A DNA stretch of 64,000 nt, from the IMG/VR virus record IMGVR_UViG_2974656882_000001, positions 1 to 64,000 of that record. One strand, given 5' to 3'. A program made the translations under genes and the position numbers. Under the pieces are notes generated by a model. It saw nothing but the letters and a program-made list of their open reading frames with translations. It was not told the DNA's origin and made no database searches. Shown piece after piece: positions 5,552-39,509 of this stretch. Positions within the stretch are counted from its first letter, which is position 1. Every line of letters starts with the position of its first letter. The stretch is from a virus. Lineage: Duplodnaviria > Heunggongvirae > Uroviricota > Caudoviricetes > Straboviridae.

Positions 5552-5591
5552 TTTACTTTACATAAGAACTATGATATAATTGTCATAGTTC
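5551..5591 (+). promoter_or_regulatory. early promoter ATTTAC-N18-TATAAT with the -10 inside a hairpin loop (gaactatga / tcatagttc): PeSL-like
   Basis: read directly; coordinates approximate. Confidence 0.55.
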
Positions 5592-5610
5592 TTTCTTAGG
5601 AATAAACAAT

Positions 5611-7284
5611 ATGAAAAAAGTCGTAATTTTAGGTGCAGGTCTTGCAACTCGCCTATATCCAATCACCCATCATATTCCTAAAGTCTTAGTGAATTATAAG
5701 CAACACACAATTTTGCATCATTTATATTCATTGTACACTAGACTTGGTGCTGAACAAATTATTGTGGCTGTTCATAGCAAGTTTGCTTCACAAGTTAAAG
5801 AATACGCAAAGTTGTTCGGACTTGACATTGTTGTCGAAACTGTCGATGAAGCATATGGTTCAGCTTATGCAATTTCTAGATTAGCAGATCATGTCAACGG
5901 TCACAACGTTGTTTTTAACTGGTGTGATGTCATCCCGGATTTTGATGCATTTCGATGGGATGCAAATGCAATCTATACCTTTGGTGATGAATGTCGATAT
6001 AGCTACAATGGCAAAACTTTGAAAGAACACATTGTTGGTACAGGTGGTAACGTTGTAGGCATATACCAATATCGTGATTTCTTTATTTCACGTATCAATG
6101 ACAAAGATGAAGCTAATGAGTTCTTCAAAGGGCGTGATTTTGTTGAATTAATTGACACGACAAATGAAGCGTTTTATCAAGATTATTTGCTTAATTTAGT
6201 TGACTTAGGGGACAAGCCTAAGCTTGAAATTGCACATCGTAATCGTGAACTTAATCGTGAATTCAACCAAGTGACTATGGCCTCAGGTGTTGTTTATAAA
6301 GCGGCAATCAATGAAAAAGGACGTCAATTGCAAAAAGAAGAACTTGCATGGTATGCAAAGGTTGATAGCCCTGCATTGCCAAAAATTCTTGATCGTCGTG
6401 AAACTGACAAAATAATGTCATTCAAAATGGAACGTATCATCGGCAAACCGATGTTTGAAGTGTATACGCCAGAATTATTGCCGAAAATTCTCGAGACTCT
6501 CAAATTTGATAAAATGCCAGAGTTTACATCTCGTGAACAGATCATCAATGATTATCAATATGAGGTCATTGACAAAGTCATGAGCCGTTGTGATGAAATT
6601 AAAGGAGTCATTAAATCATTTGGCGACATCGAATATGTCAATAATGTCAAAATCGGACGTTTAGAAACAATGTTGAAGCAAGCATTTGCACATTTAACAT
6701 ATGAAGCAAACGATAAAGATTATTATGTTATTCATGGCGACCCGAACTTCAGTAATATAATGCTTGATCAAAACGGTGATGTTCGTTTAATTGATCCACG
6801 TGGATATTTTGGCAAAACAAAAATCTATGGGCCGCGAATTTATGATGAAGCTAAAGTGCTTTATGCGCTGACGGGTTATGATAAATTTAATTCAGATCAT
6901 ATGTGGGGTGGATTAGCCATCAACGGTAATGCTGCAACGATCAATATCGAGCCATTAAGCGTAACATCTCTTCATAGTAAATATTTTAATGAATACCATC
7001 ATCTCTGGGTTGCAGTGATTTGGATTGCTCTTGCAGGATATTTCAAAAATAATCCATTGAAATCCGTTAGTGCATTCTACTACGGTATGTATTTGTTAAC
7101 GACTGCTCTTGATAAAATGGGACGTCGTTTGAAAGATGGATCAGTGGCTCATGATTCAGGATTAGTTCATGCAGTACTATCTACAAAAAATCCAGACAAA
7201 TGGCTATTAACTGATCTTGAAACAGGTGAAAAATATCGCCCTTCGAAATTTATTGGTGATATGCACTGGGAGAAAATTCAATGA
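5611..7284 (+). CDS. bifunctional sugar-1-phosphate nucleotidyltransferase (RmlA/GlmU/LicC-like N-terminus) fused to an APH/choline-kinase-like sugar kinase (C-terminus)
   Basis: N-terminus VVILGAGLATRLYPITHHIPKVLV (GxGTRL NTase motif); C-terminus HGDPNFSNIMLD...DVRLIDPRG (Brenner HxDxxxxN kinase motif plus DFG-like ID). Same architecture class as AmgK/MurU and LicA/LicC pairs. Confidence 0.75.
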   Translation: MKKVVILGAGLATRLYPITHHIPKVLVNYKQHTILHHLYSLYTRLGAEQIIVAVHSKFASQVKEYAKLFGLDIVVETVDEAYGSAYAISRLADHVNGHNVVFNWCDVIPDFDAFRWDANAIYTFGDECRYSYNGKTLKEHIVGTGGNVVGIYQYRDFFISRINDKDEANEFFKGRDFVELIDTTNEAFYQDYLLNLVDLGDKPKLEIAHRNRELNREFNQVTMASGVVYKAAINEKGRQLQKEELAWYAKVDSPALPKILDRRETDKIMSFKMERIIGKPMFEVYTPELLPKILETLKFDKMPEFTSREQIINDYQYEVIDKVMSRCDEIKGVIKSFGDIEYVNNVKIGRLETMLKQAFAHLTYEANDKDYYVIHGDPNFSNIMLDQNGDVRLIDPRGYFGKTKIYGPRIYDEAKVLYALTGYDKFNSDHMWGGLAINGNAATINIEPLSVTSLHSKYFNEYHHLWVAVIWIALAGYFKNNPLKSVSAFYYGMYLLTTALDKMGRRLKDGSVAHDSGLVHAVLSTKNPDKWLLTDLETGEKYRPSKFIGDMHWEKIQ

Positions 7285-7661
7285 TTCGTCCAAAACAATT
7301 TTGCTTTGATGTCGATAATACCATCACTCTTTGGGATGATAGTCGTGACTATGAAAATTTCAAACCTGATCTTGAAATGGTATCAATGATCAATGAGTTA
7401 TATGATCAAGGGCATCATATAACTCTATTCACAGCTCGAGGCATGACATCAGTAGGTTCAGATGCAATAAGCCGTGCTATTGTGCCTGCACTAGTTAAAA
7501 ATCTTGAAAAGATTAAATTGAAATATCATCAACTGCTCACACATAAACCAGTGTATGATTGGATCATTGATGATAAGGCGTTGAACCCTAAAGAATTCAA
7601 AGATGCTTTTCGTAACAATGAATTATTATCTAAACAACCATATGTCCCAGAGGTGAATTGA
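7281..7661 (+). CDS. HAD-superfamily phosphatase (KdsC-like small sugar-phosphate phosphatase)
   Basis: FCFDVDNTITLW = DxDxT motif I; ATGA-coupled to the flanking genes. Confidence 0.65.
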   Translation: MIRPKQFCFDVDNTITLWDDSRDYENFKPDLEMVSMINELYDQGHHITLFTARGMTSVGSDAISRAIVPALVKNLEKIKLKYHQLLTHKPVYDWIIDDKALNPKEFKDAFRNNELLSKQPYVPEVN

Positions 7662-8365
7662 TGACAAAGTATATTTTAGCTAGCACATTTGAAGAAGCAT
7701 TCAAACGCCTCAATTATCTAGTGATTACTGAACCTGAATTTGTCACGGATTCTCGTATCGGCAAATGTCGTGAAATCGGATCAATTCTTTTAGAGGTAGC
7801 ACTTCCGGATACTGGCGCAATTTTCAAAGATAAAAATATTAATCGTATCGATTATGGTTACGCAGAAAAATTCTGGGAATTCATGATCCAAGGTGGCACA
7901 GATGCGGAACAAGTGTTTAAGGACTATCCAAATGTCGCGAAATTTATTGCGAAACCGAAAACGGATGCTTTACCTGCAAATTTCAATACCTTCTATGGGC
8001 CACGAATTGTTTCACAGTTACCAGCCCTTATCAAAGAACTTAAAGAAAAACCGAACTCACGACGTGTAGTTTTTCAAATTCTTCAAGAACAAGATCAAGT
8101 GCTTTTAGATGCAGATGAATCGTTAGAATATCCATGTACAGATTCTGTTACCTTTTATATTCGTGAAGGACGTTTGTACATGCATACACATATGCGAAGC
8201 CAAAACTGTGCAGTAGTTATGCAGCTCGATTTTTATTTGATGCACCGATTCATGGAATATATCGCAAAAGAATGCAATGTTGAATTTGGCACTTATGCAC
8301 ATTCTATTGTTTCTGCTCATGTATTTGAACGTGATTTGGATTACGTTAAGAACTTTTTAGGATAA
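7661..8365 (+). CDS. 42: dCMP hydroxymethylase (thymidylate-synthase fold)
   Basis: NSRRVVFQIL...YPCTDSVTFYIREGRLYMHTHMRSQNCAVV aligns with T4 gp42 DSRRGIMIY...FMCTNTVQYLIRDKKINAVVNMRSNDVV (catalytic Cys region). The track start is a TTG; the true ATG is at 7661, overlapping the upstream stop. Confidence 0.8.
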   Translation: MTKYILASTFEEAFKRLNYLVITEPEFVTDSRIGKCREIGSILLEVALPDTGAIFKDKNINRIDYGYAEKFWEFMIQGGTDAEQVFKDYPNVAKFIAKPKTDALPANFNTFYGPRIVSQLPALIKELKEKPNSRRVVFQILQEQDQVLLDADESLEYPCTDSVTFYIREGRLYMHTHMRSQNCAVVMQLDFYLMHRFMEYIAKECNVEFGTYAHSIVSAHVFERDLDYVKNFLG

Positions 8366-9315: not shown

Positions 9316-9845
9316 TCTTAGTTGAAGGTCCTGATAACGCTGGCAAAACTACATTAATTTCAAATTTAGAACGATTTACTCCTGCAGTTTTGATGCCATT
9401 TCCTAAACGCACAAGTGAAGGTCGCTTCACTTGTGTAACTCGCAACGAAGTTGCAATATTTGAAACGATGTTAAGATACATCGATGACGACACAACGTAT
9501 ATTCTTGATCGTGGTGGTTTAAGTAATATTGTATATGAAGGTGTACTTCGTGGTAAACCAACTCAAATTTTCAAAGATGACTTCAAAAGATTCATCAAAC
9601 AAAATGATGTTTTAGTAGTTGGTCTTACTCGTAACAAACTTAATGACAACTTTGCAGATGATTTGATTTCAATTAGTGAAGAACAATTTAATGCGATTGT
9701 TGACGAGTTTGAAGATGTGTATAATGAATTTGGAATAACTCCTTATCGAATCCTTGACCATGATGTGTACAACAACATCAATGATATTGTTCCATTTGAA
9801 AAAGTAATGGAAGACTTAAAAATTGAAGAATTTATTGGACCTTAA
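9303..9845 (+). CDS. P-loop kinase-like protein (180 aa), possible (d)NMP or sugar kinase
   Basis: Walker A LVEGPDNAGKTTLISN at the N-terminus. Confidence 0.45.
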   Translation: MAKLILVEGPDNAGKTTLISNLERFTPAVLMPFPKRTSEGRFTCVTRNEVAIFETMLRYIDDDTTYILDRGGLSNIVYEGVLRGKPTQIFKDDFKRFIKQNDVLVVGLTRNKLNDNFADDLISISEEQFNAIVDEFEDVYNEFGITPYRILDHDVYNNINDIVPFEKVMEDLKIEEFIGP

Positions 9846-9846
9846 T

Positions 9847-10968
9847 ATGAAAATTTTATACTTACCTTGTCGTTCTGTGCCATTTAACATTAACCGTGTT
9901 GATGGTGGCCTTGAAGCAGTTCAATATAATTTTATTGTGAATTTATCTAAAGTTCATGATATCGATTATGTTGCATTTGGAGATGAAGAATTTGGTGATG
10001 TTAAAGTCAACACATTATCAATTGATAAACCTATTGGTGCCAAGTTTACTACTGCTCATGCATACAAAATCAAATATAAACTTCAGGAAATTACAGACTG
10101 GGACCAGTATGATGCCATTGTAATTATCGAAGGTAGCAAAATGGTACTTAACACCCTTGCAGAATTAGGACAGATTTCTAAAGTTCGAAATATTCTTGCA
10201 ACACCACTCGATCCATCAGTACGTGGAATTGTACAATGCTGGAACAACGCAGTAATGGTCCATAAATTAGGTGGTAAAAATATTGTCCCAACTCAAACCT
10301 TTAAAGACTTAGCTGCAAATGTTTATTCAAAAATGAATGAACGAATTGCTGCAGAAGTTATTGATTTTGATTACTGGCAAGCTAATGATATTATTGCGGA
10401 TGAATTTTATCCACCTATTCTTATTAGCGAACGCCCAACAGTTCTTGAATCTGAAGGACACATTGTTCAAGCCCAACGATTTGATAATACGTTTAGAAAA
10501 TCAAACGTTGCATTCGGTGCAATGGAATTATACGATGGCCCTAAGATTGCCTTTTGTCCTTCTAAATGGGCTCCGGGTAAGAAATGGCTCAAACAAGACC
10601 ATTGGGTAATTATTGATGCAAAACGTCAAGCTGTTCAAACTGAAATTTCGACAGCAAAACTTCTTGTTAATACTTGTCACAACACTGGCACAGTAGAGAA
10701 TGGCTCACTTGAGGCAATCTCACAAGGCACGCCAGTACTTCAACTAATTCAAAAAGGATACAACCATGCTACATTTGAGTACGACCCTAATACTGTTCGA
10801 GTTGAATTTGAAGAAGGCGCAAGCACTCAAGAACTAATCGAGTTATATGCCAAGGCATTAAATGATTTTGAAGATACATATGAGCAACGAGTTGCAAGAG
10901 CAGAATATCTTTATAAGAAATTTAATGAAGAAGCGTACTTTAAGCTCTGGGAAGCTGTTTTAAAATAA
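9847..10968 (+). CDS. GT-B fold glycosyltransferase (GT4-like); paralog of 11028-12146
   Basis: N-terminus MKILYLPC...GGLE; C-terminus TGTVENGSLEAISQGTPVL (E-X7-E-like GT-B motif); ~45% identity to the next ORF along the whole length; start moved to the internal ATG that matches the paralog. Confidence 0.55.
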   Translation: MKILYLPCRSVPFNINRVDGGLEAVQYNFIVNLSKVHDIDYVAFGDEEFGDVKVNTLSIDKPIGAKFTTAHAYKIKYKLQEITDWDQYDAIVIIEGSKMVLNTLAELGQISKVRNILATPLDPSVRGIVQCWNNAVMVHKLGGKNIVPTQTFKDLAANVYSKMNERIAAEVIDFDYWQANDIIADEFYPPILISERPTVLESEGHIVQAQRFDNTFRKSNVAFGAMELYDGPKIAFCPSKWAPGKKWLKQDHWVIIDAKRQAVQTEISTAKLLVNTCHNTGTVENGSLEAISQGTPVLQLIQKGYNHATFEYDPNTVRVEFEEGASTQELIELYAKALNDFEDTYEQRVARAEYLYKKFNEEAYFKLWEAVLK

Positions 10969-10978
10969 TTCTGAAAAT

Positions 10979-10994
10979 GGAGCCTTCGGGCTCC
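10979..10994 (+). promoter_or_regulatory. UUCG-tetraloop hairpin (ggagcc-ttcg-ggctcc)
   Basis: perfect 6-bp stem with UUCG loop between the paralogous GT genes. Confidence 0.6.
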
Positions 10995-11027
10995 ATAAAT
11001 ACTACTACACTTTCTTTGAGATGAAAC

Positions 11028-12146
11028 ATGAAAATCTTATACATTCCATGTCGATTTATTACTTTTAATGCCAACTATATTTCAGGTGGCCTTGAATCGG
11101 TCCAATTGAACTTTATCAAAACGATGAGCAAGAAGCATCAAATTGATTATATTGCATTTGGCGATGAAACATTTGGACCTTACAAAGTAAACCCAATCTC
11201 TATTGACTATCCGATTGTTGACAAATATACGGTAAAACATGGCAAAAAGATCATTGAAAAAATTGCAGAACTTGATTGCTCCCAATACGATGCTATCGTA
11301 ACTGTAGAGGCAGCAAAAGGTGTTATCAATGGTTTAATTAAACTAGGGCTTGGACCAAAGATTCGAAATTTATTGGCTACTCCACTTGACCCTACAATTC
11401 GCACACTTGTTTCTATTTGGCGCACTGCGGTATTCATTCACCAGAATGGCGGTAAAAATTTAGTTCCTACTCAAACCTTTAAAGATTTGACATCTAAAGT
11501 TTATTCAAAAATGAACAGACGTTTAGCGGTAGGTGCCATTGATTTTGATTATTGGGCTAAGAATGACATCATCTCTGATAATTTCTTTCCAGCTACGTTA
11601 ATCGAGAATCCGCCAGAAGTTTTGCCATCAAAGGGATATGTAGTACAAGCTCAACGGTATGACTTAAAATTTAGAAAGACAAATGTAGCATTAGAAGCAA
11701 TGAAACATTGTCCACATAAAATTATTGCATTCTTGCCAAGACAGTGGGCACCTCCAAAGAAATATCTTAAAGAGCCTTTTGTGCATATGGATATACCTCG
11801 TAAAGCAATCCAAGATACAATTAAAGAAGCACTAGTTCTTGTAAATACTTGTCATGATACCGGTACTATTGAACATGGCTCAATGGAAGCGATTGAAAAG
11901 GGTGTTCCAGTATTACAACTTATTCAACGAGGCTATAGTCATGCCACGTTAGAACATGATCCAACTACACAAGTTGTATGGATCGATGATGGTATGACAA
12001 CTGAGGAAATTATTGCAGCTTATTCTGATGCGTTAAATAATTTCACCGATACATTTGAACAACGAGTAAATCGTGCAAATGCATTATACGAACAATACCG
12101 CCCTGAACGTGTATTTGCACTATGGGAAAAGGCACTTCTGGAGTAA
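11028..12146 (+). CDS. GT-B fold glycosyltransferase, tandem paralog
   Basis: MKILYIPC...GGLE; TGTIEHGSMEAIEKGVPVL. Confidence 0.55.
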   Translation: MKILYIPCRFITFNANYISGGLESVQLNFIKTMSKKHQIDYIAFGDETFGPYKVNPISIDYPIVDKYTVKHGKKIIEKIAELDCSQYDAIVTVEAAKGVINGLIKLGLGPKIRNLLATPLDPTIRTLVSIWRTAVFIHQNGGKNLVPTQTFKDLTSKVYSKMNRRLAVGAIDFDYWAKNDIISDNFFPATLIENPPEVLPSKGYVVQAQRYDLKFRKTNVALEAMKHCPHKIIAFLPRQWAPPKKYLKEPFVHMDIPRKAIQDTIKEALVLVNTCHDTGTIEHGSMEAIEKGVPVLQLIQRGYSHATLEHDPTTQVVWIDDGMTTEEIIAAYSDALNNFTDTFEQRVNRANALYEQYRPERVFALWEKALLE

Positions 12147-12148
12147 AT

Positions 12149-12460
12149 ATGTCCACTAACGATGAAGATCTTAATACAGCTAATGACAGCAGAGGCCCAT
12201 CCGGAGCACTATACGAAAAGTCTTTAGGTATCATTAGAGAGGCAATGAAAGATGTCAAACAAGAAATCTTGATTAAGCTTGAAGACGGATCAGACCATAT
12301 TGTGTATATCCATGATATTACAATAAATGCTAATAGTGTTTCATATGATTTTTCTACGCCAAGCGAAGACAGAAAGGATGAATTAACAAAGCATGTAGAG
12401 TATATCATTCAATTGCAAATGGCTGACATTAAAAGTAAAAAGAAAATGTTTACATATTAA
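12149..12460 (+). CDS. hypothetical protein (103 aa)
   Basis: SD GGAG then ATG immediately after the GT stop. Confidence 0.4.
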   Translation: MSTNDEDLNTANDSRGPSGALYEKSLGIIREAMKDVKQEILIKLEDGSDHIVYIHDITINANSVSYDFSTPSEDRKDELTKHVEYIIQLQMADIKSKKKMFTY

Positions 12461-12465
12461 GCAAT

Positions 12466-12479
12466 GGTCCTTCGGGACC
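12466..12479 (+). promoter_or_regulatory. UUCG hairpin (ggtcc-ttcg-ggacc) followed by TGGTATATAAT (-10-like) upstream of gene 41
   Basis: read directly. Confidence 0.55.
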
Positions 12480-12520
12480 ATCTTGGTATATAATTATTCT
12501 AATTGAATAAGGGTGACTAT

Positions 12521-14017
12521 ATGATAGACGTTATTTTAGGCCAATTGATTTCTAATCAAGAATATTTTGGCAGAGTATGGCCATACCTCAAAGAAGACTA
12601 TTTTGAGAAAGGTCCTGCACGAATTCTTTATAATTCAATTAAGTCTCATGTTGACGCATACAATGGAATCCCATCAAAGGTCGCATTAGATTTAGTTGTA
12701 AACAACTCAAATTTAAATGAAGTTGATTTTAAAGGCGTGTCAACACTTTTAGGAAATCTTAAAACTGAACCTGAATCTGTAGATTGGCTTGTCCCAGAAA
12801 CTGAAAAATACGTGCAACGACGTGCAATGTACAATGCAACTGTAAAAATTGTACAAATTCAGACGAATGCAGATAAACCATTAAATCAACGAGACAAGCG
12901 TTTGCCTGATGTCGGTGCTATTCCGGATATCATGCGAGATGCATTATCAGTTTGTTTCGATTCTTCTATCGGGCATTCATGGATGGAAGACTATGAAGCT
13001 CGATGGTTGTCTTACCAAAATAAAACACGTAAAATCCCGTTTAAGCTCAATATGCTAAATAAAATTACAAAGGGTGGTGTAGAAATTGGCACATTGAATA
13101 TTATTTTAGCTGGTGTAAACGTTGGTAAATCTTTAGGATTGTGTTCGCTTACTGCAGACTATTTACAATCTGGTAAAAATGTTTTGTACATCTCAATGGA
13201 GATGGCAGAAGAAGTTGTGGCAAAGCGTATTGATGCAAACTTACTTGATGTCACAATGGATGACATTGACGATGGTAAAATCAGTTACCCTGAATACAAA
13301 TCTAAGATGGAACGTTGGAGAAAGGCAAATGTTCTTGGAGAGTTGTACATCAAACAATATCCTATTGGAGGTGCTCATGCATTAACATTCAAGGCGTTAT
13401 TAAACGAATTGAAGTTGAAGAAAGCCTTCAAGCCTGATATTATTGTTGTAGATTATCTTGGCATCTGTGCATCATCTCGAATTAAAGTGTTTAGTGAAAA
13501 CTCATACACACTTGTTAAAGCTATTGCAGAAGAACTTCGAGCACTGGCTGTTGAAGAACGAGTACCTATTTGGACCGCAGCTCAGACCACTCGTGGTGGC
13601 TGGGATAACTCTGATATCACTATGAGTGATATCGCAGAATCTGCCGGCCTAAGTCATACTGCCGACTTTATCTTGGCTGCGATCGAAACCGAAGATTTAG
13701 CTACCCAAGGCGTCCAGTTAATGAAACAAATTAAATCACGTTATGGGGATAAGTCAATATTCAATAAATTTAATTTGTGTGTCAAGAAAGGTAATCAACG
13801 CTGGTATGAAGAAGATGGTCCTAGTGCACCAGTTATTCCAGAATCTCAAATGACCGACGAGATAATTATCAAAGCATGTGTTGCCGCTAAAGAAACTATT
13901 CCTGTTACTGAAGAATCTATTCAATTGTCAAATATCGAAGAGATGAATAAAGTACATCGTATTTCAAGTGCATCTCGAGCGGAATTAGATGATCTTGCAG
14001 CAAAACTAACCTTTTAA
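12521..14017 (+). CDS. 41: replicative DNA helicase (DnaB-like primase-helicase)
   Basis: Near-colinear identity to T4 gp41 (e.g. GVNVGKSLGLCSLTADYLQSGKNVLYISMEMAEEV; IAEELRALAVEERVPIWTAAQ). Start set at MIDVILGQL to match T4 MVEIILSHL. Confidence 0.92.
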   Translation: MIDVILGQLISNQEYFGRVWPYLKEDYFEKGPARILYNSIKSHVDAYNGIPSKVALDLVVNNSNLNEVDFKGVSTLLGNLKTEPESVDWLVPETEKYVQRRAMYNATVKIVQIQTNADKPLNQRDKRLPDVGAIPDIMRDALSVCFDSSIGHSWMEDYEARWLSYQNKTRKIPFKLNMLNKITKGGVEIGTLNIILAGVNVGKSLGLCSLTADYLQSGKNVLYISMEMAEEVVAKRIDANLLDVTMDDIDDGKISYPEYKSKMERWRKANVLGELYIKQYPIGGAHALTFKALLNELKLKKAFKPDIIVVDYLGICASSRIKVFSENSYTLVKAIAEELRALAVEERVPIWTAAQTTRGGWDNSDITMSDIAESAGLSHTADFILAAIETEDLATQGVQLMKQIKSRYGDKSIFNKFNLCVKKGNQRWYEEDGPSAPVIPESQMTDEIIIKACVAAKETIPVTEESIQLSNIEEMNKVHRISSASRAELDDLAAKLTF

Positions 14018-30536: not shown

Positions 30537-30878
30537 ATGAAGAAGAAATGTATTCTTTTAATTGATTCACTAAAAAACATACAAAACAACGTTAAAAGTG
30601 AACTTAAATTGCTCGATAGCAAAATTGCTAAAATTCATCGTACTATGTATAATGAACGTAAATGGAGAATTCGTAATAATAGACCGCTAGGTGCCAAAGA
30701 TAAAGCTCGTGAAAATGAGGTACAACAAGCTAAAGAATCGCTTGAACTTCTAGCAAGTACATTTAGACACCATATAAGAAGTTACGGTGATGCTATTTGT
30801 CGAATTCGTGAAGTTAAACGAGGTAACTCAAAGAAAAATGTTGATGACATTATCTTAAATCTGTTTACTTCGTTATAA
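30537..30878 (+). CDS. basic coiled-coil protein (113 aa)
   Basis: ATG right after upstream stop. Confidence 0.4.
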   Translation: MKKKCILLIDSLKNIQNNVKSELKLLDSKIAKIHRTMYNERKWRIRNNRPLGAKDKARENEVQQAKESLELLASTFRHHIRSYGDAICRIREVKRGNSKKNVDDIILNLFTSL

Positions 30879-30925
30879 AAGTATGGTATAATGGTCTTAT
30901 CAAATCTAATAATTGATTTGAAATT
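30864..30925 (+). promoter_or_regulatory. early promoter GTTTAC-N17-TATAAT (30864-30892) plus conserved structured leader atcaaatc-taataatt-gatttgaa (7-bp stem) just upstream of the SD
   Basis: same cassette, nearly identical, at ~31321-31380, ~32570-32628 and ~27334-27384. Confidence 0.65.
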
Positions 30926-30941
30926 AAATGAGTAAATTACT

Positions 30942-31286
30942 ATGAACATCTTAGATTTAATCGAATTCTTTCCTAAAGCTTCAACTATCCATACAGCATT
31001 TTGCAATGAGTTTGATATTGCTCCTCATGCTTTAGAAACTTTTAGCACTTACTATATTGAAAGCTTATCATTTAAAGATGGCTGCCCGATAATTCGTGCA
31101 TATACGATTTATTCTACCTGGTGCAATAGTGAAATGCGCACAGTTTATCATATCTTTGGATGGACGGTTTCGAAAAATCGTATAGAAATTGACGATGAGC
31201 CTTTAAATGCAAATCGTTTTACAGGATTTGACTTTGCTCTTTCATATTTGATGAATCGAGTTCAAGTTTCAGAATTAAAAAATTAA
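30942..31286 (+). CDS. hypothetical acidic protein (114 aa), member of a tandem paralog set
   Basis: shares ...I(E/T)IDDEP(L/F)... C-terminal block with 31381-31734. Confidence 0.45.
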   Translation: MNILDLIEFFPKASTIHTAFCNEFDIAPHALETFSTYYIESLSFKDGCPIIRAYTIYSTWCNSEMRTVYHIFGWTVSKNRIEIDDEPLNANRFTGFDFALSYLMNRVQVSELKN

Positions 31287-31296
31287 AATAAATTGC

Positions 31297-31327
31297 ACAA
31301 AAGGAGTATACATCATACTCCTTTTGT
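31297..31327 (+). terminator. hairpin acaaaaggagtat-acatc-atactccttttgt fused to GGTATAAT promoter
   Basis: read directly. Confidence 0.65.
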
Positions 31328-31380
31328 GGTATAATGGTCTTATCAAATCTAATAATTGATTTGAAATTGAGGAAATTATT

Positions 31381-31734
31381 ATGCTAAACATCCAATTACC
31401 TTCAGTTGAACAAATCGTAGATCAATTTCACATCGATTTCAATATCACCGATGGCAACTTCAATTACAAATCATCCTTTGTAACATCTGCAACTCCTAAC
31501 CGATTAACTGCTAATGGCTTTAATGATGGCTGGGAATTACGTATGCTAACTGTTTATTCAGTTTTTGATGCGGATATTGATGCAATTCAATATGTAATTT
31601 GGGGCTCTTCTGTTGACACAAGTACAATGGATATTACAATTGATGATGAACCATTTTTCGATCAATCATTCGATTCATTAGAGCAAGCATTACGTGCATT
31701 AAATTATGAAGTAAATGCATATAAAATTCACTAA
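31381..31734 (+). CDS. hypothetical acidic protein (117 aa), paralog
   Basis: MDITIDDEPFFDQSF versus RIEIDDEPLNANRF. Confidence 0.45.
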   Translation: MLNIQLPSVEQIVDQFHIDFNITDGNFNYKSSFVTSATPNRLTANGFNDGWELRMLTVYSVFDADIDAIQYVIWGSSVDTSTMDITIDDEPFFDQSFDSLEQALRALNYEVNAYKIH

Positions 31735-31802
31735 TTAGTTTACATGATAGAGCTGTTATGATATAATAGTTCTATCAAATCAATCACAATGAGTAAATTG
31801 TT

Positions 31803-32126
31803 ATGAACATCATATTTCCTTCACATATCGCAGTAGAAAACGCAATTGGCGCAGAGTTTTACGTAATTAGCTGCCCTAAGCTAAATCGTTTGTATTACAA
31901 AGGTGCCTTTGTTAATTCTGATTCAAATTGGGAAGTCCAAGGTTTCGCCTTATACAATTACTACGATGAAGACCTAGGTGAAACAATCTATATGTGCGTA
32001 GAATTCTCTTATGACACCGAAAATGAAGTTTTTGAATTTAAAGAATTCATTGAGCCAGGTGGTCATGATGATATTGATGAAGCCGAAGAATATTTACAAT
32101 CACTATATAATGTGAAATTAGTGTAA
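31803..32126 (+). CDS. hypothetical acidic protein (107 aa)
   Basis: own PeSL promoter and leader. Confidence 0.45.
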   Translation: MNIIFPSHIAVENAIGAEFYVISCPKLNRLYYKGAFVNSDSNWEVQGFALYNYYDEDLGETIYMCVEFSYDTENEVFEFKEFIEPGGHDDIDEAEEYLQSLYNVKLV

Positions 32127-32200
32127 AAGGCAATTTACATTGCGATAAGACTATGGTATAATAGTCTTATCAAATCAAACAACACATTGAGTAAATTAAT

Positions 32201-32536
32201 ATGCGTTCATTAAACAATTTCAAAAACACTGTTCCAAATTTTGTTAAGAATCACCTTGGCGCCATTGAATTGGTTCAAATTATGGAATTTCCGGACCATT
32301 TCCTTATTATGACGTTTGACGCTTTAGAAGAAGAGTACACTGTAACTTCAGTAAACAAACGTGAAAATGATGACCAATATGAATCTGAATTGTTCAATGG
32401 GTATTCTGAAAAAATAACTCTTGGCGAATACGAAGAAGAAGTCGAAGATGAAACGATTGATCTTGAAGTTATTACATCGTTTGAAGATTATGCAATATAT
32501 CGTTTTGCATTAGAACTCGGTATCGAAGGAATTTAA
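32201..32536 (+). CDS. hypothetical acidic protein (111 aa)
   Basis: own PeSL promoter and leader. Confidence 0.45.
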   Translation: MRSLNNFKNTVPNFVKNHLGAIELVQIMEFPDHFLIMTFDALEEEYTVTSVNKRENDDQYESELFNGYSEKITLGEYEEEVEDETIDLEVITSFEDYAIYRFALELGIEGI

Positions 32537-32628
32537 TTAAACTAATAAACTGTTTACATCTTGATAGGACTATAGTATAATAGTTCTATCAAATCTAATA
32601 ACAGATTTGAAATTTGAGGAAATTAAAA

Positions 32629-32861: not shown

Positions 32862-32951
32862 TGGCAAAAATAAAAAGAAAATTATTTACTTCTGCTTTTT
32901 ATTGTGGTATAATAGTTCTATCAACACGTTAAACTAATTGAGTAAAACATT

Positions 32952-33425
32952 ATGAATATTTTTCATTTTGACACAAATCCAGCTAAATCTGCACAATATC
33001 ATTGTGACAAACATGTTGTTAAAATGTGTGTCGAATATTGTCAAATTCTTTCTACTGTTTCTCGTTTAAACGGCTGTGATCAGGAAATTCTTTATAAAGC
33101 AACTCATAAAAATCACCCATGTGTTGTATGGACTATGCAATCTCGCCAAAACTACGAGTTCCTCCTTGATCTAGTTATCGAGTTATTTGGTGAATATACA
33201 TACCGCTATGGCAAAGTTCATGCTAGTTCACGAGTTATCCCTGCATTAATTGACAATATTTCAAAAATTCCATTAGGTGCAAATAAACTTACACCATTCG
33301 TCGCAGTAATGCCAGGTCGTATTCTTCATACTAATGTAATTAACGAGTACCGATCACTTTATAAAAATGAAAAAGCACACATGGCAAAATGGACCGGTCG
33401 TGGTATTCCATTCTTTATGAAATAA
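32952..33425 (+). CDS. hypothetical protein (157 aa)
   Basis: conserved leader ttgagtaaaacattATG. Confidence 0.45.
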   Translation: MNIFHFDTNPAKSAQYHCDKHVVKMCVEYCQILSTVSRLNGCDQEILYKATHKNHPCVVWTMQSRQNYEFLLDLVIELFGEYTYRYGKVHASSRVIPALIDNISKIPLGANKLTPFVAVMPGRILHTNVINEYRSLYKNEKAHMAKWTGRGIPFFMK

Positions 33426-33491
33426 AAACTATTTACATAGGTGCCATTATGTAGTATAATGGCACTAACAGAAATTAATGAGTAAAATATC

Positions 33492-35621: not shown

Positions 35622-35640
35622 CACATAACCCGAGGTAATC

Positions 35641-36084
35641 ATGATTAAACAATATGTAAATTACGATTTGCTTGATGCTTTTGAGCATAATGACTTTGAT
35701 GCAATAGTACATGGCTGCAACTGTTTTCATACGATGGGTGCAGGTATTGCTGGTGCTATTGCAAAAAGATTTCCTGTAGCTGTTGAAGCAGACAAGAAAA
35801 CTGAGTATGGCGATTGGAGCAAGCTCGGCGATGTGAGCATCGCCACAACTGTTAATGGTGACATCATTAATGCATATACTCAATATCGTCCTGGTAAATG
35901 CCCAACACATCAGCTATATGAAAATATACGTGCAGCATTCACGTTAATTAATAGCAAATATGCTGGCAAATCTTTAGGAATTCCTAAAATCGGAGCAGGT
36001 ATTGCAGGTGGAAATTGGCAAGAAATTGCTGAGATCATCAATGACGTGACGCCAGATGTCAAAATTTATGTATTATACATATAA
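35641..36084 (+). CDS. macro-domain protein (ADP-ribose binding / hydrolase fold), 147 aa
   Basis: AIVHGCNCFHTMGAGIAGAI and IGAGIAGG are the two glycine-rich macro-domain motifs (compare IVNAAN...GGGVxxAI and GxGxxG). Confidence 0.7.
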   Translation: MIKQYVNYDLLDAFEHNDFDAIVHGCNCFHTMGAGIAGAIAKRFPVAVEADKKTEYGDWSKLGDVSIATTVNGDIINAYTQYRPGKCPTHQLYENIRAAFTLINSKYAGKSLGIPKIGAGIAGGNWQEIAEIINDVTPDVKIYVLYI

Positions 36085-36086
36085 CA

Positions 36087-36114
36087 AAAGGAGCCAAATG
36101 GCTCCTTTATTTTT
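36087..36114 (+). terminator. rho-independent terminator aaaggagcc-aaat-ggctccttta-ttttt (bidirectional-capable)
   Basis: near-identical terminators at 42541-42566 and 55817-55844. Confidence 0.8.
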
Positions 36115-36140
36115 CTCTCAAGATACATCAAACAAATCTA

Positions 36141-36228
36141 ATTTCGGCGCGAAGCGCCGGCTGCGCAGCTATACTTCTCCGACCAAATAGATAAATTTAG
36201 AGCGGTGAACCGGTAGAACCATTATAAC
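36141..36228. repeat. Inverted-repeat copy B (reverse complement of window positions 1-91)
   Basis: On the - strand it reads gTTATAATggttctaccggttcaccgctctaaattt...tagctgcgcagccggcgcttcgcgccgaaat; the central ~20 nt diverged and there is a 3-nt indel relative to copy A. Confidence 0.8.
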
Positions 36229-36247
36229 ATACAAATTTCATAAAGCA
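36221..36247 (-). promoter_or_regulatory. putative MotA-dependent middle promoter on the - strand: MotA box TGCTTTA, ~14 nt, then TATAAT (the -10 of repeat copy B), firing leftwards into the repeat
   Basis: - strand reads acTTGCTTTAtgaaatttgtatgtTATAATgg; the spacing is 1-2 nt longer than the canonical 12+/-1. Confidence 0.4.
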
Positions 36248-36360
36248 AGTGGATTATGCAAAATTAATCTATTTATATGATCATTTTTTAATCTCATAGA
36301 TGTTTACTTTGGCAACAATATTTGATACTATAGTTCTATCAAATAAATGAGCAAATTGTT

Positions 36361-36459
36361 ATGATTTACGTACTATTTGTCATTTTAGTACTTTTTATTA
36401 TTTTAGCATATCGATTCATTAATTATCGAGTTAAAAATAAATTTGGAGCCTTTAAATGA
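36361..36459 (+). CDS. micro-ORF encoding a 32-aa hydrophobic peptide, ATGA-coupled to the next gene
   Basis: preceded by GTTTAC...tactat...ttctatcaaataaatgagcaaattgttATG early-promoter/leader cassette. Confidence 0.25.
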   Translation: MIYVLFVILVLFIILAYRFINYRVKNKFGAFK

Positions 36460-37424
36460 TTTCATCACTTAAAATTGCTGAATGTTATGTAAACAAAGCA
36501 AAAAATGCAAAGGCTCGCGGTATTAAATTTGACATGTCATTAATTGCTTTTGCGAATATCAAATGCCAAGAAGTTTGTGCATATTCTGGGCTACCTTTTG
36601 ATGATTCGCTAAATGGCTCTCTTTCTTTAGAACGTATTGATAATTCTATTGGCTATATCGACGGCAATGTAATTCCGGTACGTCGTGAATTCAACACATT
36701 ACGTGGTAATCTTACTCTTGATACTATACACGCTCGTATTGAACAGTTGAATTCAATTGTAATTTCTAAAGAAGCTAAAATTGTGCACCATCAAACAGCT
36801 ATGGCATCAGAATTTACATTAGCTGGTCTGAAAGAGATTACATCTAGTTCACCTAAAGTATTTAACAAGCCTAAGCTCAACATTAAGCATTTGCCACGTT
36901 GGAAAAAGTATGTAGATACTTTAGCAAATACACAACGTGCACTAGAATCACGTATGGCATTAATTGCTGAAACTGAACTATTAATTATAGGCAAGAAAGG
37001 TACACCGCCAGGCAAAAATAAATTAAAGAATTTGCGCAAATTGCTAAATACTCATACTACTAAGGCTGATGCGTTAAAACTTGCTATCGATGGAGCAGAA
37101 AAGGCATTAGAAAAGTTTTATAAAAACTGTTGCAAGACTAGTGATGGGCAACCGTTGAATATTCAACTGCCAAAGATAGTAGTTGAAAAGCCATCCAACA
37201 CCTCATTTCATGTAGCCCAGATCGAACTTCTACGTCGAGAGATTAAAGAACATTCTACTGCAATTCTAAATTTAAAAACTATCATTGCTCCAGCGCTAAT
37301 TAAATTCAGAGACCTATCCGATGCAAATAAAGAACGTATTCGTTTAGGATTACCTATCAACACTACAACCTACGCTTTGCTAAAACATAAAGTAGGTTAT
37401 AATTGTCTTATTTACAAGATTTGA
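36456..37424 (+). CDS. protein with degenerate HNH-endonuclease-like N-terminal motif (322 aa), likely catalytically inactive
   Basis: CAYSGLPF...SLERIDNSIGYIDGNVIPVRREFNTLRGN follows the CxYCG...DHIxP..GG...NLxxlCxxCNxxKGN spacing, but His/Cys are replaced (DH to ER, C..CN to R..FN). Confidence 0.4.
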   Translation: MISSLKIAECYVNKAKNAKARGIKFDMSLIAFANIKCQEVCAYSGLPFDDSLNGSLSLERIDNSIGYIDGNVIPVRREFNTLRGNLTLDTIHARIEQLNSIVISKEAKIVHHQTAMASEFTLAGLKEITSSSPKVFNKPKLNIKHLPRWKKYVDTLANTQRALESRMALIAETELLIIGKKGTPPGKNKLKNLRKLLNTHTTKADALKLAIDGAEKALEKFYKNCCKTSDGQPLNIQLPKIVVEKPSNTSFHVAQIELLRREIKEHSTAILNLKTIIAPALIKFRDLSDANKERIRLGLPINTTTYALLKHKVGYNCLIYKI

Positions 37425-37434
37425 GGAACCTGCT

Positions 37435-37800
37435 ATGGAAATCATGTTTTTACTATTTCTTCTGGTAGGCGTAGGTATTACATTGCTTCACTACGCCAAT
37501 GAATCTCAGGCAAATAAAGCAAAATTTAACAATTTGTGGGCGGAGTATGATGCATTAATTCATGTAAATCAGGCGATATCTAAAGAACATCAACTCGTTG
37601 CAAAAGAACTTAAGCTCATCAAGGCGGAATACTTGCGCCTGAAGAATTCTAAACCTCAACCGTCCAATACTGAAATTACACACAATTTTACAAAATCTGA
37701 ATTACAGCGTATTCGTTTTTCTGTGCACCCAGATAAGCACCAAGGCAAAACTGCGCAGTTATTCATCAAAGTCAATGATATGTTGGAGAAAATGAAGTGA
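37435..37800 (+). CDS. membrane-anchored J-domain-like protein (121 aa)
   Basis: N-terminal TM (MEIMFLLFLLVGVGITLL), coiled coil, C-terminal ...ELQRIRFSVHPDKHQGKTAQLFIKVNDMLEKM with an HPD tripeptide in DnaJ helix II/III context. Confidence 0.5.
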   Translation: MEIMFLLFLLVGVGITLLHYANESQANKAKFNNLWAEYDALIHVNQAISKEHQLVAKELKLIKAEYLRLKNSKPQPSNTEITHNFTKSELQRIRFSVHPDKHQGKTAQLFIKVNDMLEKMK

Positions 37801-38096
37801 TTGCAGGATATACTATTTTTTACAAAGACAAAGATGGGTTTGAATTGCCTTTAACTGAATTAGGTGTTTTCAAAATCTATCCTAATGAACGAATTGCGAA
37901 AACTGCGATGCAAGAACTTGCAGACAGTATTACAAATATTCTACATCCTATTAAAACATTTAAGGCAAAACGAACGGCATTTTTAGGAATCAAAGTAGTG
38001 GAAGAAGTTGAAGCGCCAAAATTGCCTGAATACGCACGTGATGAATTGACTCGACAATTGAAAACTATGTTTGTAAAACAAGTGAAAGTAGCTTAA
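37797..38096 (+). CDS. hypothetical protein (99 aa)
   Basis: overlapping start. Confidence 0.4.
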   Translation: MIAGYTIFYKDKDGFELPLTELGVFKIYPNERIAKTAMQELADSITNILHPIKTFKAKRTAFLGIKVVEEVEAPKLPEYARDELTRQLKTMFVKQVKVA

Positions 38097-38121
38097 TGCT
38101 TTCAAGTTAATGTAATATAAT
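38097..38121 (+). promoter_or_regulatory. putative middle promoter for dda: MotA-box-like TGCTTTC(A), 12 nt, then TATAAT
   Basis: read directly: aaTGCTTTCaagttaatgtaaTATAATtt. Confidence 0.5.
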
Positions 38122-38147
38122 TTTTAAAAGTTTTTAGGTCAAATATT

Positions 38148-39509
38148 ATGAATGATTTGAAATTGGAAGATTTAAATGAAGGCCAACGTGCTGCATTTGA
38201 TGCGGTCATGAATGTCATTTCATCCAAATCTATGATGGCGACATCTTCACATGATGATGGTCCTTTACCGCACATCACAATCAATGGCCCTGCTGGTACA
38301 GGTAAAACTACATTAACCAAGTTCCTTATTAGTCATTTAATTGCAAAAGGCGAAAAGGGTGTAATGCTTGCAGCTCCTACTCACCAAGCAAAGAAAGTAC
38401 TATCAAACCTTTCAGGTATGGATGCTTCAACTATTCATTCATTGTTAAAAATTAACCCTACTACATATGAAGATTCTACAGTCTTCCAGCAGTCAGATAC
38501 ACCAGACCTATCGGAGTGTCGAGTGTTAATTTGCGATGAAGTCTCAATGTATGATCGCGAATTATTTCGGATTTTGATGGCATCTATTCCGCCATGGTGC
38601 ACTGTCATTGGATTAGGCGATATTGCTCAGATTCGCCCAGTAGCTCCAAATAGCAATGTGCCCGAATTGTCAGCGTTCTTCTTCAATGACAAGTTTCAAC
38701 AAGTTTCATTGACTGAAGTTATGCGTTCTAATGCACCGATCATTGAAGTAGCAACTGAAATTCGTCAAGGTGGTTGGATTCGTGAAAATATCCGAGACGG
38801 CAATGGTGTTCATTCAATGGTTAGACAAGGCGGCGGATCAGTAGCTGCGTTTTTAACAAAGTACTTTGAAATCGTCAAAGATCCTGATGACCTATTCGAT
38901 AATCGAATGTTAGCGTTTACAAACAAATCGGTAAATGATTTGAATAACATCATTCGTAAAAAGTTATATCAAACCACTGAGCCATATATCGTTAATGAAG
39001 TTCTTGTTATGCAAGAGCCACTAATTCGAAGTCACACATTCGAAGGCAAGACTTTTTCTGAAATCATTTTCAACAACGGTGAATTAGTCAGAATTGTTAA
39101 TTGTCGACGCAAAGATGTCAACTTGTTTATTAAAGGTTTTAAAGGTTCTGATTCTATCAATGTATGGGAACTTGAAATACGTGGTGTAGATTCTGTTGCA
39201 AGTGATGTGATACGTGTTATCCATGACGAACAAGAAATGAATAAATTCCAATACTTTATGTCGAAATCTGCAGGCGAATTTAAAAATGCACGTGATCGTC
39301 GTCCAAACTGGAAAGGGTGGTGGGATTTACGTAGTCAGTTCCATAAAGTCAAACCTTTGCCATGTGGCACTATTCACAAATCTCAAGGTTCTACTTTAGA
39401 TAACGTATTTTTATTTACGCCGTGTATTCATCGTGCTGATCCTGCATTAGCTCAGCAATTATTATATGTTGGAGCAACACGTGCTAAAAACAATGTGTAT
39501 TTTGTTTAA
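38148..39509 (+). CDS. dda: SF1B DNA helicase Dda
   Basis: LEDLNEGQRAAFDAVMNVI...HITINGPAGTGKTTLTKFLI...LAAPTHQAKKVLSNLSGMDASTIHSLLKINPTTYED...CRVLICDEVSMYD...GTIHKSQGSTLDNVFLFTP...LYVGATRA aligns along the whole length with T4 Dda. Confidence 0.92.
   Translation: MNDLKLEDLNEGQRAAFDAVMNVISSKSMMATSSHDDGPLPHITINGPAGTGKTTLTKFLISHLIAKGEKGVMLAAPTHQAKKVLSNLSGMDASTIHSLLKINPTTYEDSTVFQQSDTPDLSECRVLICDEVSMYDRELFRILMASIPPWCTVIGLGDIAQIRPVAPNSNVPELSAFFFNDKFQQVSLTEVMRSNAPIIEVATEIRQGGWIRENIRDGNGVHSMVRQGGGSVAAFLTKYFEIVKDPDDLFDNRMLAFTNKSVNDLNNIIRKKLYQTTEPYIVNEVLVMQEPLIRSHTFEGKTFSEIIFNNGELVRIVNCRRKDVNLFIKGFKGSDSINVWELEIRGVDSVASDVIRVIHDEQEMNKFQYFMSKSAGEFKNARDRRPNWKGWWDLRSQFHKVKPLPCGTIHKSQGSTLDNVFLFTPCIHRADPALAQQLLYVGATRAKNNVYFV

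What the first reader, a model, noticed from the sequence alone, without database searches (positions are those of the whole stretch)
35641..36084. Stand-alone macro-domain protein at the end of the hyperplastic early block
The 147-aa ORF has both glycine-rich macro-domain motifs (AIVHGCNC...MGAGIAGAI; IGAGIAGG). A phage early macro domain could reverse host ADP-ribosylation-based defences (DarT-type DNA ADP-ribosylation), hydrolyse ADP-ribose-derived immune signals, or edit marks written by phage ADP-ribosyltransferases. It is the last gene before the inverted-repeat copy B and has its own terminator.
Basis: partly seen in the sequence, partly recalled or inferred. Interest (0 to 1): 0.6.

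Follow-up and report, generated by a model that had tools for sequence, protein, structure and literature searches.

The report
Phage Tk.4/AdfM-type macro-domain ADP-ribose eraser
This early gene of Acinetobacter phage AbTZA1 encodes a small ADP-ribose-removing enzyme of a family found in thousands of phages, whose T4 counterpart was recently shown to protect the phage from a bacterial defence that ADP-ribosylates DNA, so it is real and interesting biology but already known in kind.

Summary
Window 35641-36084 (+) is gp077 of Acinetobacter phage AbTZA1, a 147-aa stand-alone macro domain (Pfam E 7.7e-10; PHROG 335 E 4e-57; AF2 pLDDT 91). Its best structural matches are TARG1, Poa1p and DarG. 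It is followed by a hairpin terminator and a real inverted-repeat copy.

It belongs to the TARG1/ALC1-like branch but lacks the TARG1/DarG catalytic lysine. Q81 sits at that position, with H24 and N27 conserved, which is the active-site type of SCO6735, an enzyme shown to cleave thymidine-linked ADP-ribose from DNA.

It is a homologue of T4 Tk.4 (37% identity). Tk.4 was renamed AdfM in 2025 because a knockout sensitises T4 to DarTG2. The same family also includes Adpp, an ADPR-1''-phosphate phosphatase embedded in NARP1 operons. AbTZA1 has no NARP1, ModA or ModB, but it keeps a homologue of AdfN (T4 30.3).

Best reading: an early-expressed eraser of DarT2-type DNA ADP-ribosylation. Sequence and phylogeny cannot exclude the phosphatase role or a dual role. 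I could not show that DarT2 occurs in Acinetobacter.

Verdict: a new member of a known, recently characterised family. Interest is modest.

The parts
35641..36084 (+). gp077 CDS (147 aa plus stop): stand-alone macro domain, homologue of T4 Tk.4/AdfM, PHROG 335
   Evidence: ORF. RefSeq YP_009882144.1 'phosphatase'. Pfam Macro E 7.7e-10. PHROG 335 E 4e-57. 37% identity to T4 Tk.4, E 6e-30. AF2 pLDDT 91.3. Foldseek best hit TARG1, TM 0.78/0.82.
35632..35635 (+). Shine-Dalgarno-like GAGG, 5 nt before the ATG
   Evidence: Read directly from the sequence.
35710..35751 (+). Codons H24-A37 (HGCNCFHTMGAGIA): first substrate-binding loop. H24 and N27 are equivalent to SCO6735 H24 and N27, followed by the G-x-G diphosphate loop.
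   Evidence: N27, G35 and A37 are invariant and H24 and G33 nearly invariant across 83 family members. SCO6735 mutagenesis is reported in PMC9411070. Profile alignment to 5e3b.
35881..35883 (+). Codon Q81, at the position of the TARG1 K84 / DarG K80 catalytic lysine and of the essential SCO6735 Q85
   Evidence: Pairwise alignment with TARG1. Q in 81 of 83 family members, including the T4 group and the Adps-linked members. SCO6735 Q85A is inactive.
35983..36018 (+). Codons P115-W126 (PKIGAGIAGGNW): second glycine-rich loop. A122 lies at the position of TARG1 D125.
36087..36117 (+). Intrinsic-terminator-like hairpin (AAAGGAGCC-AAAT-GGCTCCTTT) plus T-run, ending the transcription unit. The hairpin also reads on the minus strand.
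   Evidence: Analogous hairpins follow the orthologues in L008 and L009.
33432..33460 (+). Nearest strong early-promoter-like site upstream (TTTACA-17-TATAAT, 11/12). Another lies at 32885-32913. No convincing + strand terminator lies between these and 36087.
   Evidence: Motif enrichment 15 against 0.17 expected.
36141..36251 (-). Copy B of a five-copy promoter-plus-leader repeat. Its -10-like TATAATGGTTCTAC is on the minus strand, pointing back toward the terminator hairpin and the 3' end of the macro gene.

Best explanation
gp077 is an early-expressed, stand-alone ADP-ribose hydrolase of the TARG1/ALC1-like macro class. It belongs to the lysine-less 'Gln-type' subgroup that also holds SCO6735, BT1257, T4 Tk.4/AdfM and Adpp.

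Proposed mechanism: the two glycine-rich loops hold the diphosphate of ADP-ribose. Q81, positioned by N27, hydrogen-bonds the distal ribose. The bond at ribose C1'' is then hydrolysed by a water molecule rather than by a lysine nucleophile.

In AbTZA1 its most likely job is that of T4 AdfM: stripping ADP-ribose from thymidines that a host DarT2 toxin places on single-stranded phage DNA, so that replication can proceed. It would work alongside gp142, a homologue of AdfN (T4 30.3), which in T4 handles guanine-linked ADP-ribose.

What is shown here: domain, fold, subclass, conserved residues, homology, synteny, purifying selection, and absence of NARP1.
What is inferred: catalytic activity, DNA substrate, early timing, and anti-DarT2 role.
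For: - Macro domain and fold.
- Closest solved relatives by profile: BT1257 5e-14, SCO6735 3e-13, Poa1p 1e-12, TARG1 3e-11, DarG 1e-9.
- Q81 aligns with TARG1 K84. H24, N27 and Q81 match the SCO6735 residues H24, N27 and Q85. Q85A abolishes dT-ADPr hydrolysis, and SCO6735 rescues cells from DarT (PMC9411070; PMC9967889).
- Homologue of T4 Tk.4. BFVD top hit is 'tk.4 [Acinetobacter phage 133]', TM 0.94.
- tk.4 was the single HIDEN-SEQ hit under DarTG2, and a clean knockout sensitises T4. T4 lacking adfA and adfN stays DarTG2-resistant.
- No Adps, Namat or second macro gene in the 168-kb genome. The phosphatase alone is insufficient against aRES.
- AbTZA1 keeps a 30.3/AdfN homologue (42% identity, E 2e-29).
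- Early-promoter motifs lie upstream and the gene is on the + strand.
- Synteny is conserved and dN/dS is about 0.17.
- DarTG2 modules occur on Moraxellaceae plasmids, and DarTG is reported in A. baumannii hotspots.
Against: - No assay exists for this protein.
- The T4 evidence is genetic only. Removal of ADP-ribose from DNA by Tk.4 was inferred by those authors, not shown.
- gp077 is as similar to NARP1-embedded Adpp-type members (34-49% identity) as to the T4 group (39-46%). A clade joining it to T4 while excluding Adps-linked members appears in only 35% of bootstraps.
- No active-site column separates the two groups.
- Position 25 is Gly, not the Val/Ile said to be specific to SCO6735.
- I could not demonstrate DarT2 in Acinetobacter: none stood out on its plasmids, and none was named among the top 120 DarT homologues.
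- The gene is not next to vs as it is in T4.
Confidence: 0.5

Rival explanations
1. gp077 is an ADPR-1''-phosphate phosphatase like Adpp or Poa1p. It would remove the 1''-phosphate from the ADPR-1''P made by RES-domain NADases (aRES) or by RNA 2'-phosphotransferase chemistry. That would either feed a salvage route or detoxify the metabolite.
For: - Same PHROG and same invariant residues as the homologue sitting between Adps and Namat in Vibrio phage AG74.
- Adpp of Vibrio phage Gary converts ADPR-1''P to ADPR in vitro.
- 10 of the 80 nearest viral loci have Adps within 6 kb, one of them 49-50% identical to gp077.
- RefSeq and PHROG call the protein 'phosphatase'.
- Poa1p is a top structural hit.
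- gp077 has a basic residue (K86) after 'PG' in the mobile loop, where 8 of 10 Adps-linked members have R (depends on the alignment).
Against: - AbTZA1 has no Adps or Namat.
- In the published system all three genes are required, so ADPR alone does not restore NAD+.
- The phage encodes no Tpt1/KptA.
- T4, which also lacks NARP1, needs its copy against DarTG2.
- Only a minority of the family is NARP1-linked.
Confidence: 0.2
2. gp077 is a generalist hydrolase of C1''-linked ADP-ribose. It performs both reactions (dT-ADPr DNA and ADPR-1''P, perhaps also O-acetyl-ADPR or Glu-ADPr). The outcome depends on which partners the phage carries.
For: - AdfM-type and Adpp-type members share every conserved active-site residue, and NARP1-linked members are scattered across the tree.
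- All three proteins score alike on the PADLOC DarG model.
- SCO6735 and TARG1 act on both DNA and protein substrates.
- Poa1p acts on ADPR-1''P and O-acetyl-ADPR.
Against: No member has been tested on both substrates. DarG itself is DNA-specific.
Confidence: 0.2
3. gp077 acts on other ADP-ribose species. It might degrade Thoeris-type signals (gcADPR, His-ADPR), or it might reverse protein or RNA ADP-ribosylation written by the phage's own Alt-like transferase or by host toxins such as CmdT.
For: - The comparative survey argues that phage macro domains mostly target soluble ADPr derivatives (PMC9503650).
- AbTZA1 encodes an Alt homologue.
- The gene occupies the slot that modA and modB hold in T4.
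Against: - No family member is reported to cleave Thoeris signals.
- AbTZA1 lacks ModA and ModB.
- The CmdTAC paper reports strong defence against T4. T4 carries tk.4, so Tk.4 evidently does not neutralise CmdT.
- In T4 the only condition that made tk.4 important was DarTG2.
Confidence: 0.1

Closest known systems
T4 Tk.4 = AdfM (anti-DarT factor, macrodomain; bioRxiv 10.1101/2025.11.20.689424)
   Same: Same PHROG 335 and a similar size (147 aa against 155 aa). 37% identity, E 6e-30. The conserved motif set is the same (HGCNCF, MG-x-G, N-x-YTQ, IGAG-x-x-x-G-N-W). Both are stand-alone early-region genes of a Straboviridae phage that lacks NARP1.
   Different: The genomic position differs: T4 has it between tk.3 and vs, while AbTZA1 has it just upstream of srd, where T4 has modA and modB. 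The second loop is AGG rather than GKG. There is no phenotype data for AbTZA1, and the host genus differs.
Adpp, the ADPR-1''P phosphatase of NARP1-AP operons (Vibrio phage Gary; homologue in AG74)
   Same: Same family and the same invariant residues. 36% identity to the AG74 homologue.
   Different: Adpp sits between Adps and Namat and needs both. AbTZA1 has neither.
SCO6735 of Streptomyces coelicolor (PDB 5e3b) and BT1257 (2fg1)
   Same: These are the best solved-structure relatives by profile. They are lysine-less members of the ALC1-like branch with the H-x-x-N ... Q ... IG-x-G-[IL]-AGG-x-W signature. SCO6735 hydrolyses dT-ADPr and neutralises DarT.
   Different: They are cellular housekeeping or repair genes. 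SCO6735 has Val25 and a longer Lys-rich mobile loop, while gp077 has Gly25 and a shorter loop with R83 and K86.
DarG2 antitoxin macrodomain, and PhiKZ gp104 (also named AdfM; PMC13309987)
   Same: Same fold class. gp077 matches the PADLOC and NCBIfam DarG models over their macro part. Both remove DarT2 marks from DNA.
   Different: They use a catalytic Lys in an 'FPTK' motif, whereas gp077 has 'YTQ'. DarG2 has a C-terminal DarT-binding domain and an adjacent darT gene. gp077 against gp104 gives only E 0.003 over 26 aa.
Human TARG1/OARD1 and yeast Poa1p
   Same: These are the top Foldseek hits (TM 0.78-0.82 and 0.79).
   Different: The TARG1 dyad K84/D125 is Q81/A122 in gp077. Poa1p has Ser at the Gln position and Cys at the N77 position (alignment).

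Membership tests
Macro domain superfamily (Pfam PF01661) | HMM score above the curated cut-off over the full model | tested here: met
   39.2 bits against a cut-off of 22, model positions 1-118 of 118.
Macro domain superfamily (Pfam PF01661) | Three-layer alpha/beta macro fold | tested here: met
   AF2 pLDDT 91.3. All of the top 50 PDB hits listed are macro domains or designed proteins built on a macro-domain scaffold.
TARG1 (terminal ADP-ribose glycohydrolase) | Catalytic dyad Lys84/Asp125 | tested here: not met
   Q81 and A122 occupy these positions.
DarG2 antitoxin | Catalytic Lys in a 'TK' motif (Lys80) | tested here: not met
   gp077 has YTQ. Moraxella DarG2 has NFPTKQHW and PhiKZ gp104 has FPTKDNW. 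Equivalence of K80 and K84 is from the literature.
DarG2 antitoxin | C-terminal DarT-binding domain and an adjacent darT gene | tested here: not met
   The protein is 147 aa and matches only positions 11-140 of the 329-position PADLOC DarG model. No neighbouring gene carries any Pfam domain that would indicate a DarT.
Gln-type ALC1-like macrodomains (SCO6735 type) | Gln at the TARG1-Lys84 position, held by Asn27, with His24 upstream | tested here: met
   H24, N27 and Q81 are present. N27 is invariant and H24 and Q81 nearly invariant across 83 family members. Roles of the residues are from PMC9411070.
Gln-type ALC1-like macrodomains (SCO6735 type) | Val/Ile at position 25, described as specific to SCO6735 | tested here: not met
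   G25 in gp077 and in 81 of 83 family members. The proposed role is backbone-mediated, so the consequence is unclear.
Gln-type ALC1-like macrodomains (SCO6735 type) | Hydrolysis of thymidine-linked ADP-ribose on ssDNA | not testable with these tools
   Needs an enzyme assay.
T4 Tk.4/AdfM family (PHROG 335) | Full-length sequence homology to T4 Tk.4 | tested here: met
   37% identity over 154 aa, E 6e-30. PHROG 335 E 4e-57. Acinetobacter phage 133 'tk.4', TM 0.94.
T4 Tk.4/AdfM family (PHROG 335) | Protects the phage from DarTG2 | not testable with these tools
   Shown only for T4.
Adpp of NARP1-AP | Encoded within or next to an Adps-Namat (NARP1) operon | tested here: not met
   No Adps or Namat anywhere in the genome (tblastn E > 0.1; annotation).
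Adpp of NARP1-AP | ADPR-1''P phosphatase activity | not testable with these tools
   Shown for Vibrio phage Gary Adpp.

The most novel reading that the evidence does not exclude
The Gln-type phage macro domain (Tk.4/AdfM/Adpp, PHROG 335) is one bifunctional C1''-ADP-ribose hydrolase. On its own it erases DarT2 marks from DNA. When paired with NARP1 it feeds ADPR-1''P from aRES back into NAD+. Under this reading gp077 carries both activities. In AbTZA1 it has taken over the early slot upstream of srd that T4 uses for the writers ModA and ModB, and a convergent promoter-plus-leader repeat may add antisense control.
Probability: 0.2. Interest if true: 0.5.

Novelty: new member of a known kind. 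Interest (0 to 1): 0.27.

Why it matters
The finding assigns a likely counter-defence function to a gene conserved across the T4-like phages of Acinetobacter baumannii, which are candidates for phage therapy. If host strains carry DarTG2, this gene would help set host range.

It also highlights a point that two recent papers leave open. The T4-type AdfM and the NARP1-linked Adpp are one family with indistinguishable active sites, and they lack the catalytic lysine of DarG. Their substrate range and mechanism therefore deserve a direct comparison.

As a discovery in itself it is incremental, because the family, its fold class and its two roles are already described.

Tried and rejected
- Single-sequence AF2 gave an unusable model (pLDDT 44). 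It was replaced by the alignment-based model.
- I tried to assign gp077 to the AdfM branch or the Adpp branch by NJ tree, by bootstrap (the first attempt timed out), and by context-associated alignment columns. There was no robust separation. The only associated loop position depends on the alignment and is confounded by phylogeny.
- pI does not discriminate either.
- Neighbour clustering around 80 bacterial relatives found no recurrent partner. The two apparent clusters were antisense ORFs overlapping the macro gene itself.
- The search for DarT2 in Acinetobacter was unresolved. tblastn of two DarT2 proteins against plasmids and a large protein search gave Moraxella and Psychrobacter but no named Acinetobacter hit.
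- The supplement of the A. baumannii hotspot paper is not held, and the A. baumannii review was uninformative.
- The Migulavirinae preprint concerns the host ThsA macro domain, not a phage one.
- The Rfam gathering scan of the whole window found nothing.
- I considered MacroD/YmdB-type ('RNase III inhibitor', 'O-acetyl-ADP-ribose deacetylase') labels seen in some records. I rejected them as annotation carry-over, because the fold and profile hits point to the TARG1/ALC1 branch.
- I rejected membership of DarG2 and of TARG1 on catalytic residues and architecture.

Full report
**Identity of the window.** The window is the first 64 kb of Acinetobacter phage AbTZA1 (MK278860 / NC_049445; Straboviridae, Twarogvirinae, Hadassahvirus). 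Window coordinates equal record coordinates.

**The observation.** The ORF at 35641-36084 (+) is RefSeq gp077, annotated 'phosphatase'. It has a GAGG ribosome-binding site 5 nt upstream. It encodes 147 aa containing both quoted glycine-rich motifs. It matches Pfam Macro over the whole model (39.2 bits, cut-off 22) and PHROG 335 at E 4e-57. tblastn finds homologues in 2,588 phage records. Against a 67%-identical orthologue, dN/dS is about 0.17. The gene is real and constrained.

**Fold and subclass.** Single-sequence folding failed (pLDDT 44). With a 46-sequence alignment the model is confident (pLDDT 91.3, pTM 0.87).
- Foldseek against the PDB ranks TARG1 first (TM 0.78/0.82), then Poa1p and the DarG macrodomains.
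- A profile search of PDB sequences ranks BT1257 (5e-14), SCO6735 (3e-13), Poa1p (1e-12), TARG1 (3e-11) and DarG (1e-9).
- This places the protein in the TARG1/ALC1-like branch, not in MacroD.

The catalytic dyad of TARG1 is absent: Q81 aligns with K84 and A122 aligns with D125. DarG uses the equivalent Lys80 in a 'TK' motif. I confirmed that motif in a real DarG2 from a Moraxella plasmid (NFPTKQHW) and in PhiKZ gp104 (FPTKDNW). gp077 has YTQ instead.

The Gln is not a defect. In SCO6735 the equivalent Gln85 is essential (Q85A is inactive), Asn27 positions it, and the enzyme hydrolyses thymidine-linked ADP-ribose on DNA and protects against DarT (PMC9411070). gp077 has H24, N27 and Q81 at these positions. 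Across 83 family members N27 is invariant and H24 and Q81 are nearly so. The one SCO6735-specific residue that is not shared is Val25, which is Gly here.

**What is known about the family.**
- The T4 homologue is Tk.4 (155 aa, long annotated 'A1pp phosphatase motif'), 37% identical to gp077.
- A 2025 preprint found tk.4 as the single transposon-sequencing hit under DarTG2. It showed that a clean knockout sensitises T4, and renamed the gene adfM. This fits the earlier finding that T4 lacking adfA and adfN remains DarTG2-resistant. The biochemistry of Tk.4 was inferred, not shown.
- A 2026 preprint showed that a Poa1p-like macro protein embedded between Adps and Namat in NARP1 operons (Adpp, Vibrio phage Gary) converts ADPR-1''P to ADPR. 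Together with both NARP1 enzymes it overcomes the RES-domain defence aRES.
- The same Adps-macro-Namat arrangement is present in Vibrio phage AG74. Its macro protein is 36% identical to gp077 and 34% identical to Tk.4.
- A 2026 paper uses the same name, AdfM, for PhiKZ gp104 and shows it removes DarT2 marks in vitro. That protein is a Lys-type DarG2-like macrodomain from a different subfamily.

**Which role fits gp077?** Sequence does not decide.
- gp077, Tk.4 and the AG74 protein share every conserved residue.
- All three hit the PADLOC DarG model with similar scores.
- Among the 80 nearest viral loci, 10 have Adps within 6 kb and these are scattered over the tree.
- The Acinetobacter group (97%) and the T4 group (99%) are each well supported. 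A clade uniting them without Adps-linked members appears in only 35% of bootstraps.
- No active-site column tracks context.

Genome context does discriminate.
- AbTZA1 has no Adps, no Namat and no second macro gene.
- In the published system the phosphatase is useless without both partners.
- AbTZA1 carries a clear homologue of T4 30.3/AdfN, the NADAR eraser of guanine-linked DNA ADP-ribose (gp142, 42% identity, E 2e-29). It therefore keeps both T4-type enzymatic DNA-ADPr erasers.

For these reasons I favour the AdfM-like role, at confidence about 0.5. The phosphatase role and a dual-substrate role are the main rivals.

The weak point is the host. DarTG is reported in A. baumannii defence hotspots, and DarTG2 modules occur on Moraxella and Psychrobacter plasmids. 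I could not find a DarT2 assigned to Acinetobacter.

**Anatomy of the locus.**
- The T4-type early-promoter motif GTTTAC-N17-TATAAT occurs 15 times in the window against 0.17 expected, always on the + strand.
- The nearest promoter-like sites upstream of the macro gene are at 32885 and 33432. No convincing + strand terminator precedes 36087. The gene is probably the last cistron of an early transcript. This is an inference from motifs.
- Genes gp068-gp074 are not conserved in relatives. The block gp075-gp076-macro-srd-gp079-dda.1-dda is syntenic in diverged Acinetobacter T4-like phages. The gene therefore marks the boundary of the variable block rather than being part of it.
- gp078 is a true Srd homologue (E 1e-20), and gp080 is a Dda.1/Y01A family protein.
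- In T4 the slot immediately upstream of srd holds modA and modB. AbTZA1 has no ModA or ModB but does have Alt.

**Cellular relatives.** The family is widespread in bacteria at 40-54% identity. It is always a stand-alone gene with no recurrent neighbour and no adjacent DarT, like SCO6735 and BT1257.

**Verdict.** This is a correct and well-read finding, but not a new kind of thing. gp077 is a new member of the Tk.4/AdfM-Adpp family of phage Gln-type macro domains. Its most likely role is erasing DarT2-type DNA ADP-ribosylation. Its exact substrate range is the open question.

Noticed in passing
window 36141-36251 and 1-91 (continuing to 168201 of the circular record). Also, outside the window, record 65903-65967, 97814-97875 and 136044-136103: A five-copy repeat made of an early-promoter -10 (TATAATGGTTCTAC) plus a conserved 55-90 nt leader with GC-rich palindromes. 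Three copies point into + strand gene clusters. Two (36.2 kb and 136.0 kb) point leftward, convergent with upstream + strand genes, one of which is the macro gene. One search shows 4-6 matching places in each of the 25 Acinetobacter phage records listed, including those of about 76% identity. There is no Rfam match. It could be a small-RNA or leader family, or a PeSL-like mobile promoter cassette.
   Followed up: partly
window 35641-39509, compared with T4 9410-13130 (L088): The macro gene sits immediately upstream of srd, dda.1 and dda. This is the slot where T4 carries the ADP-ribosyltransferase genes modA and modB. AbTZA1 has no ModA or ModB homologue (tblastn E > 1). An ADP-ribose eraser thus occupies the place of two writers.
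   Followed up: partly
record 85070-85561 (gp142) and 85575-86237 (gp143), outside the window (L004): These are homologues of T4 30.3/AdfN (the NADAR anti-DarTG1 factor; 42% identity, E 2e-29) and of T4 30.2. Both are annotated 'hypothetical protein'.
   Followed up: partly
window 36456-37424 (gp078): This gene is annotated 'Srd anti-sigma factor' in RefSeq but 'putative HNH endonuclease' in several related records. It has no Pfam hit. It is 30% identical to T4 Srd over 234 aa (E 1e-20). It is 322 aa, against 248 aa for T4 Srd.
   Followed up: partly
window 32952-33425 (gp068): This gene is annotated 'DNA binding protein' but matches Pfam Pyr_excise (pyrimidine-dimer DNA glycosylase, DenV-like) at E 8e-9.
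   Followed up: no
window 1035-2207 and record 165973-167481: Two separate CDSs are annotated 'DNA polymerase', suggesting a split gene 43. They are separated across the record origin by about 1.8 kb, which holds five small annotated ORFs (gp201, gp200, gp001-gp003) and one copy of the repeat element.
   Followed up: no
window 30858-32614: There is a run of very similar early-promoter cassettes spaced about 395-445 bp apart, each preceding a single small ORF (gp063-gp067). It has the look of modular single-gene promoter cassettes.
   Followed up: no
window 4919-8365: This is a cluster annotated arabinose-5-phosphate isomerase, capsular polysaccharide biosynthesis protein, phosphoheptose isomerase and a thymidylate-synthase-like gene. 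A second thymidylate synthase lies at 72123-73073, outside the window. The cluster may be a sugar-based DNA hypermodification pathway.
   Followed up: no
window 10270-10417 and 11448-11595: A 148-nt direct repeat (72% identity) lies within the adjacent genes gp019 and gp020, which are probably tandem paralogues.
   Followed up: no
literature; BFVD Q6J2P1; P0027 and P0033: Two papers from 2025-2026 give the name AdfM to two different macro subfamilies: T4 Tk.4 (Gln-type) and PhiKZ gp104 (Lys-type, DarG2-like). Separately, some Acinetobacter-phage orthologues (phage 133 tk.4, 245 aa; P0027, P0033) are roughly 95 aa longer than gp077. The nature of the extra sequence is unknown.
   Followed up: no
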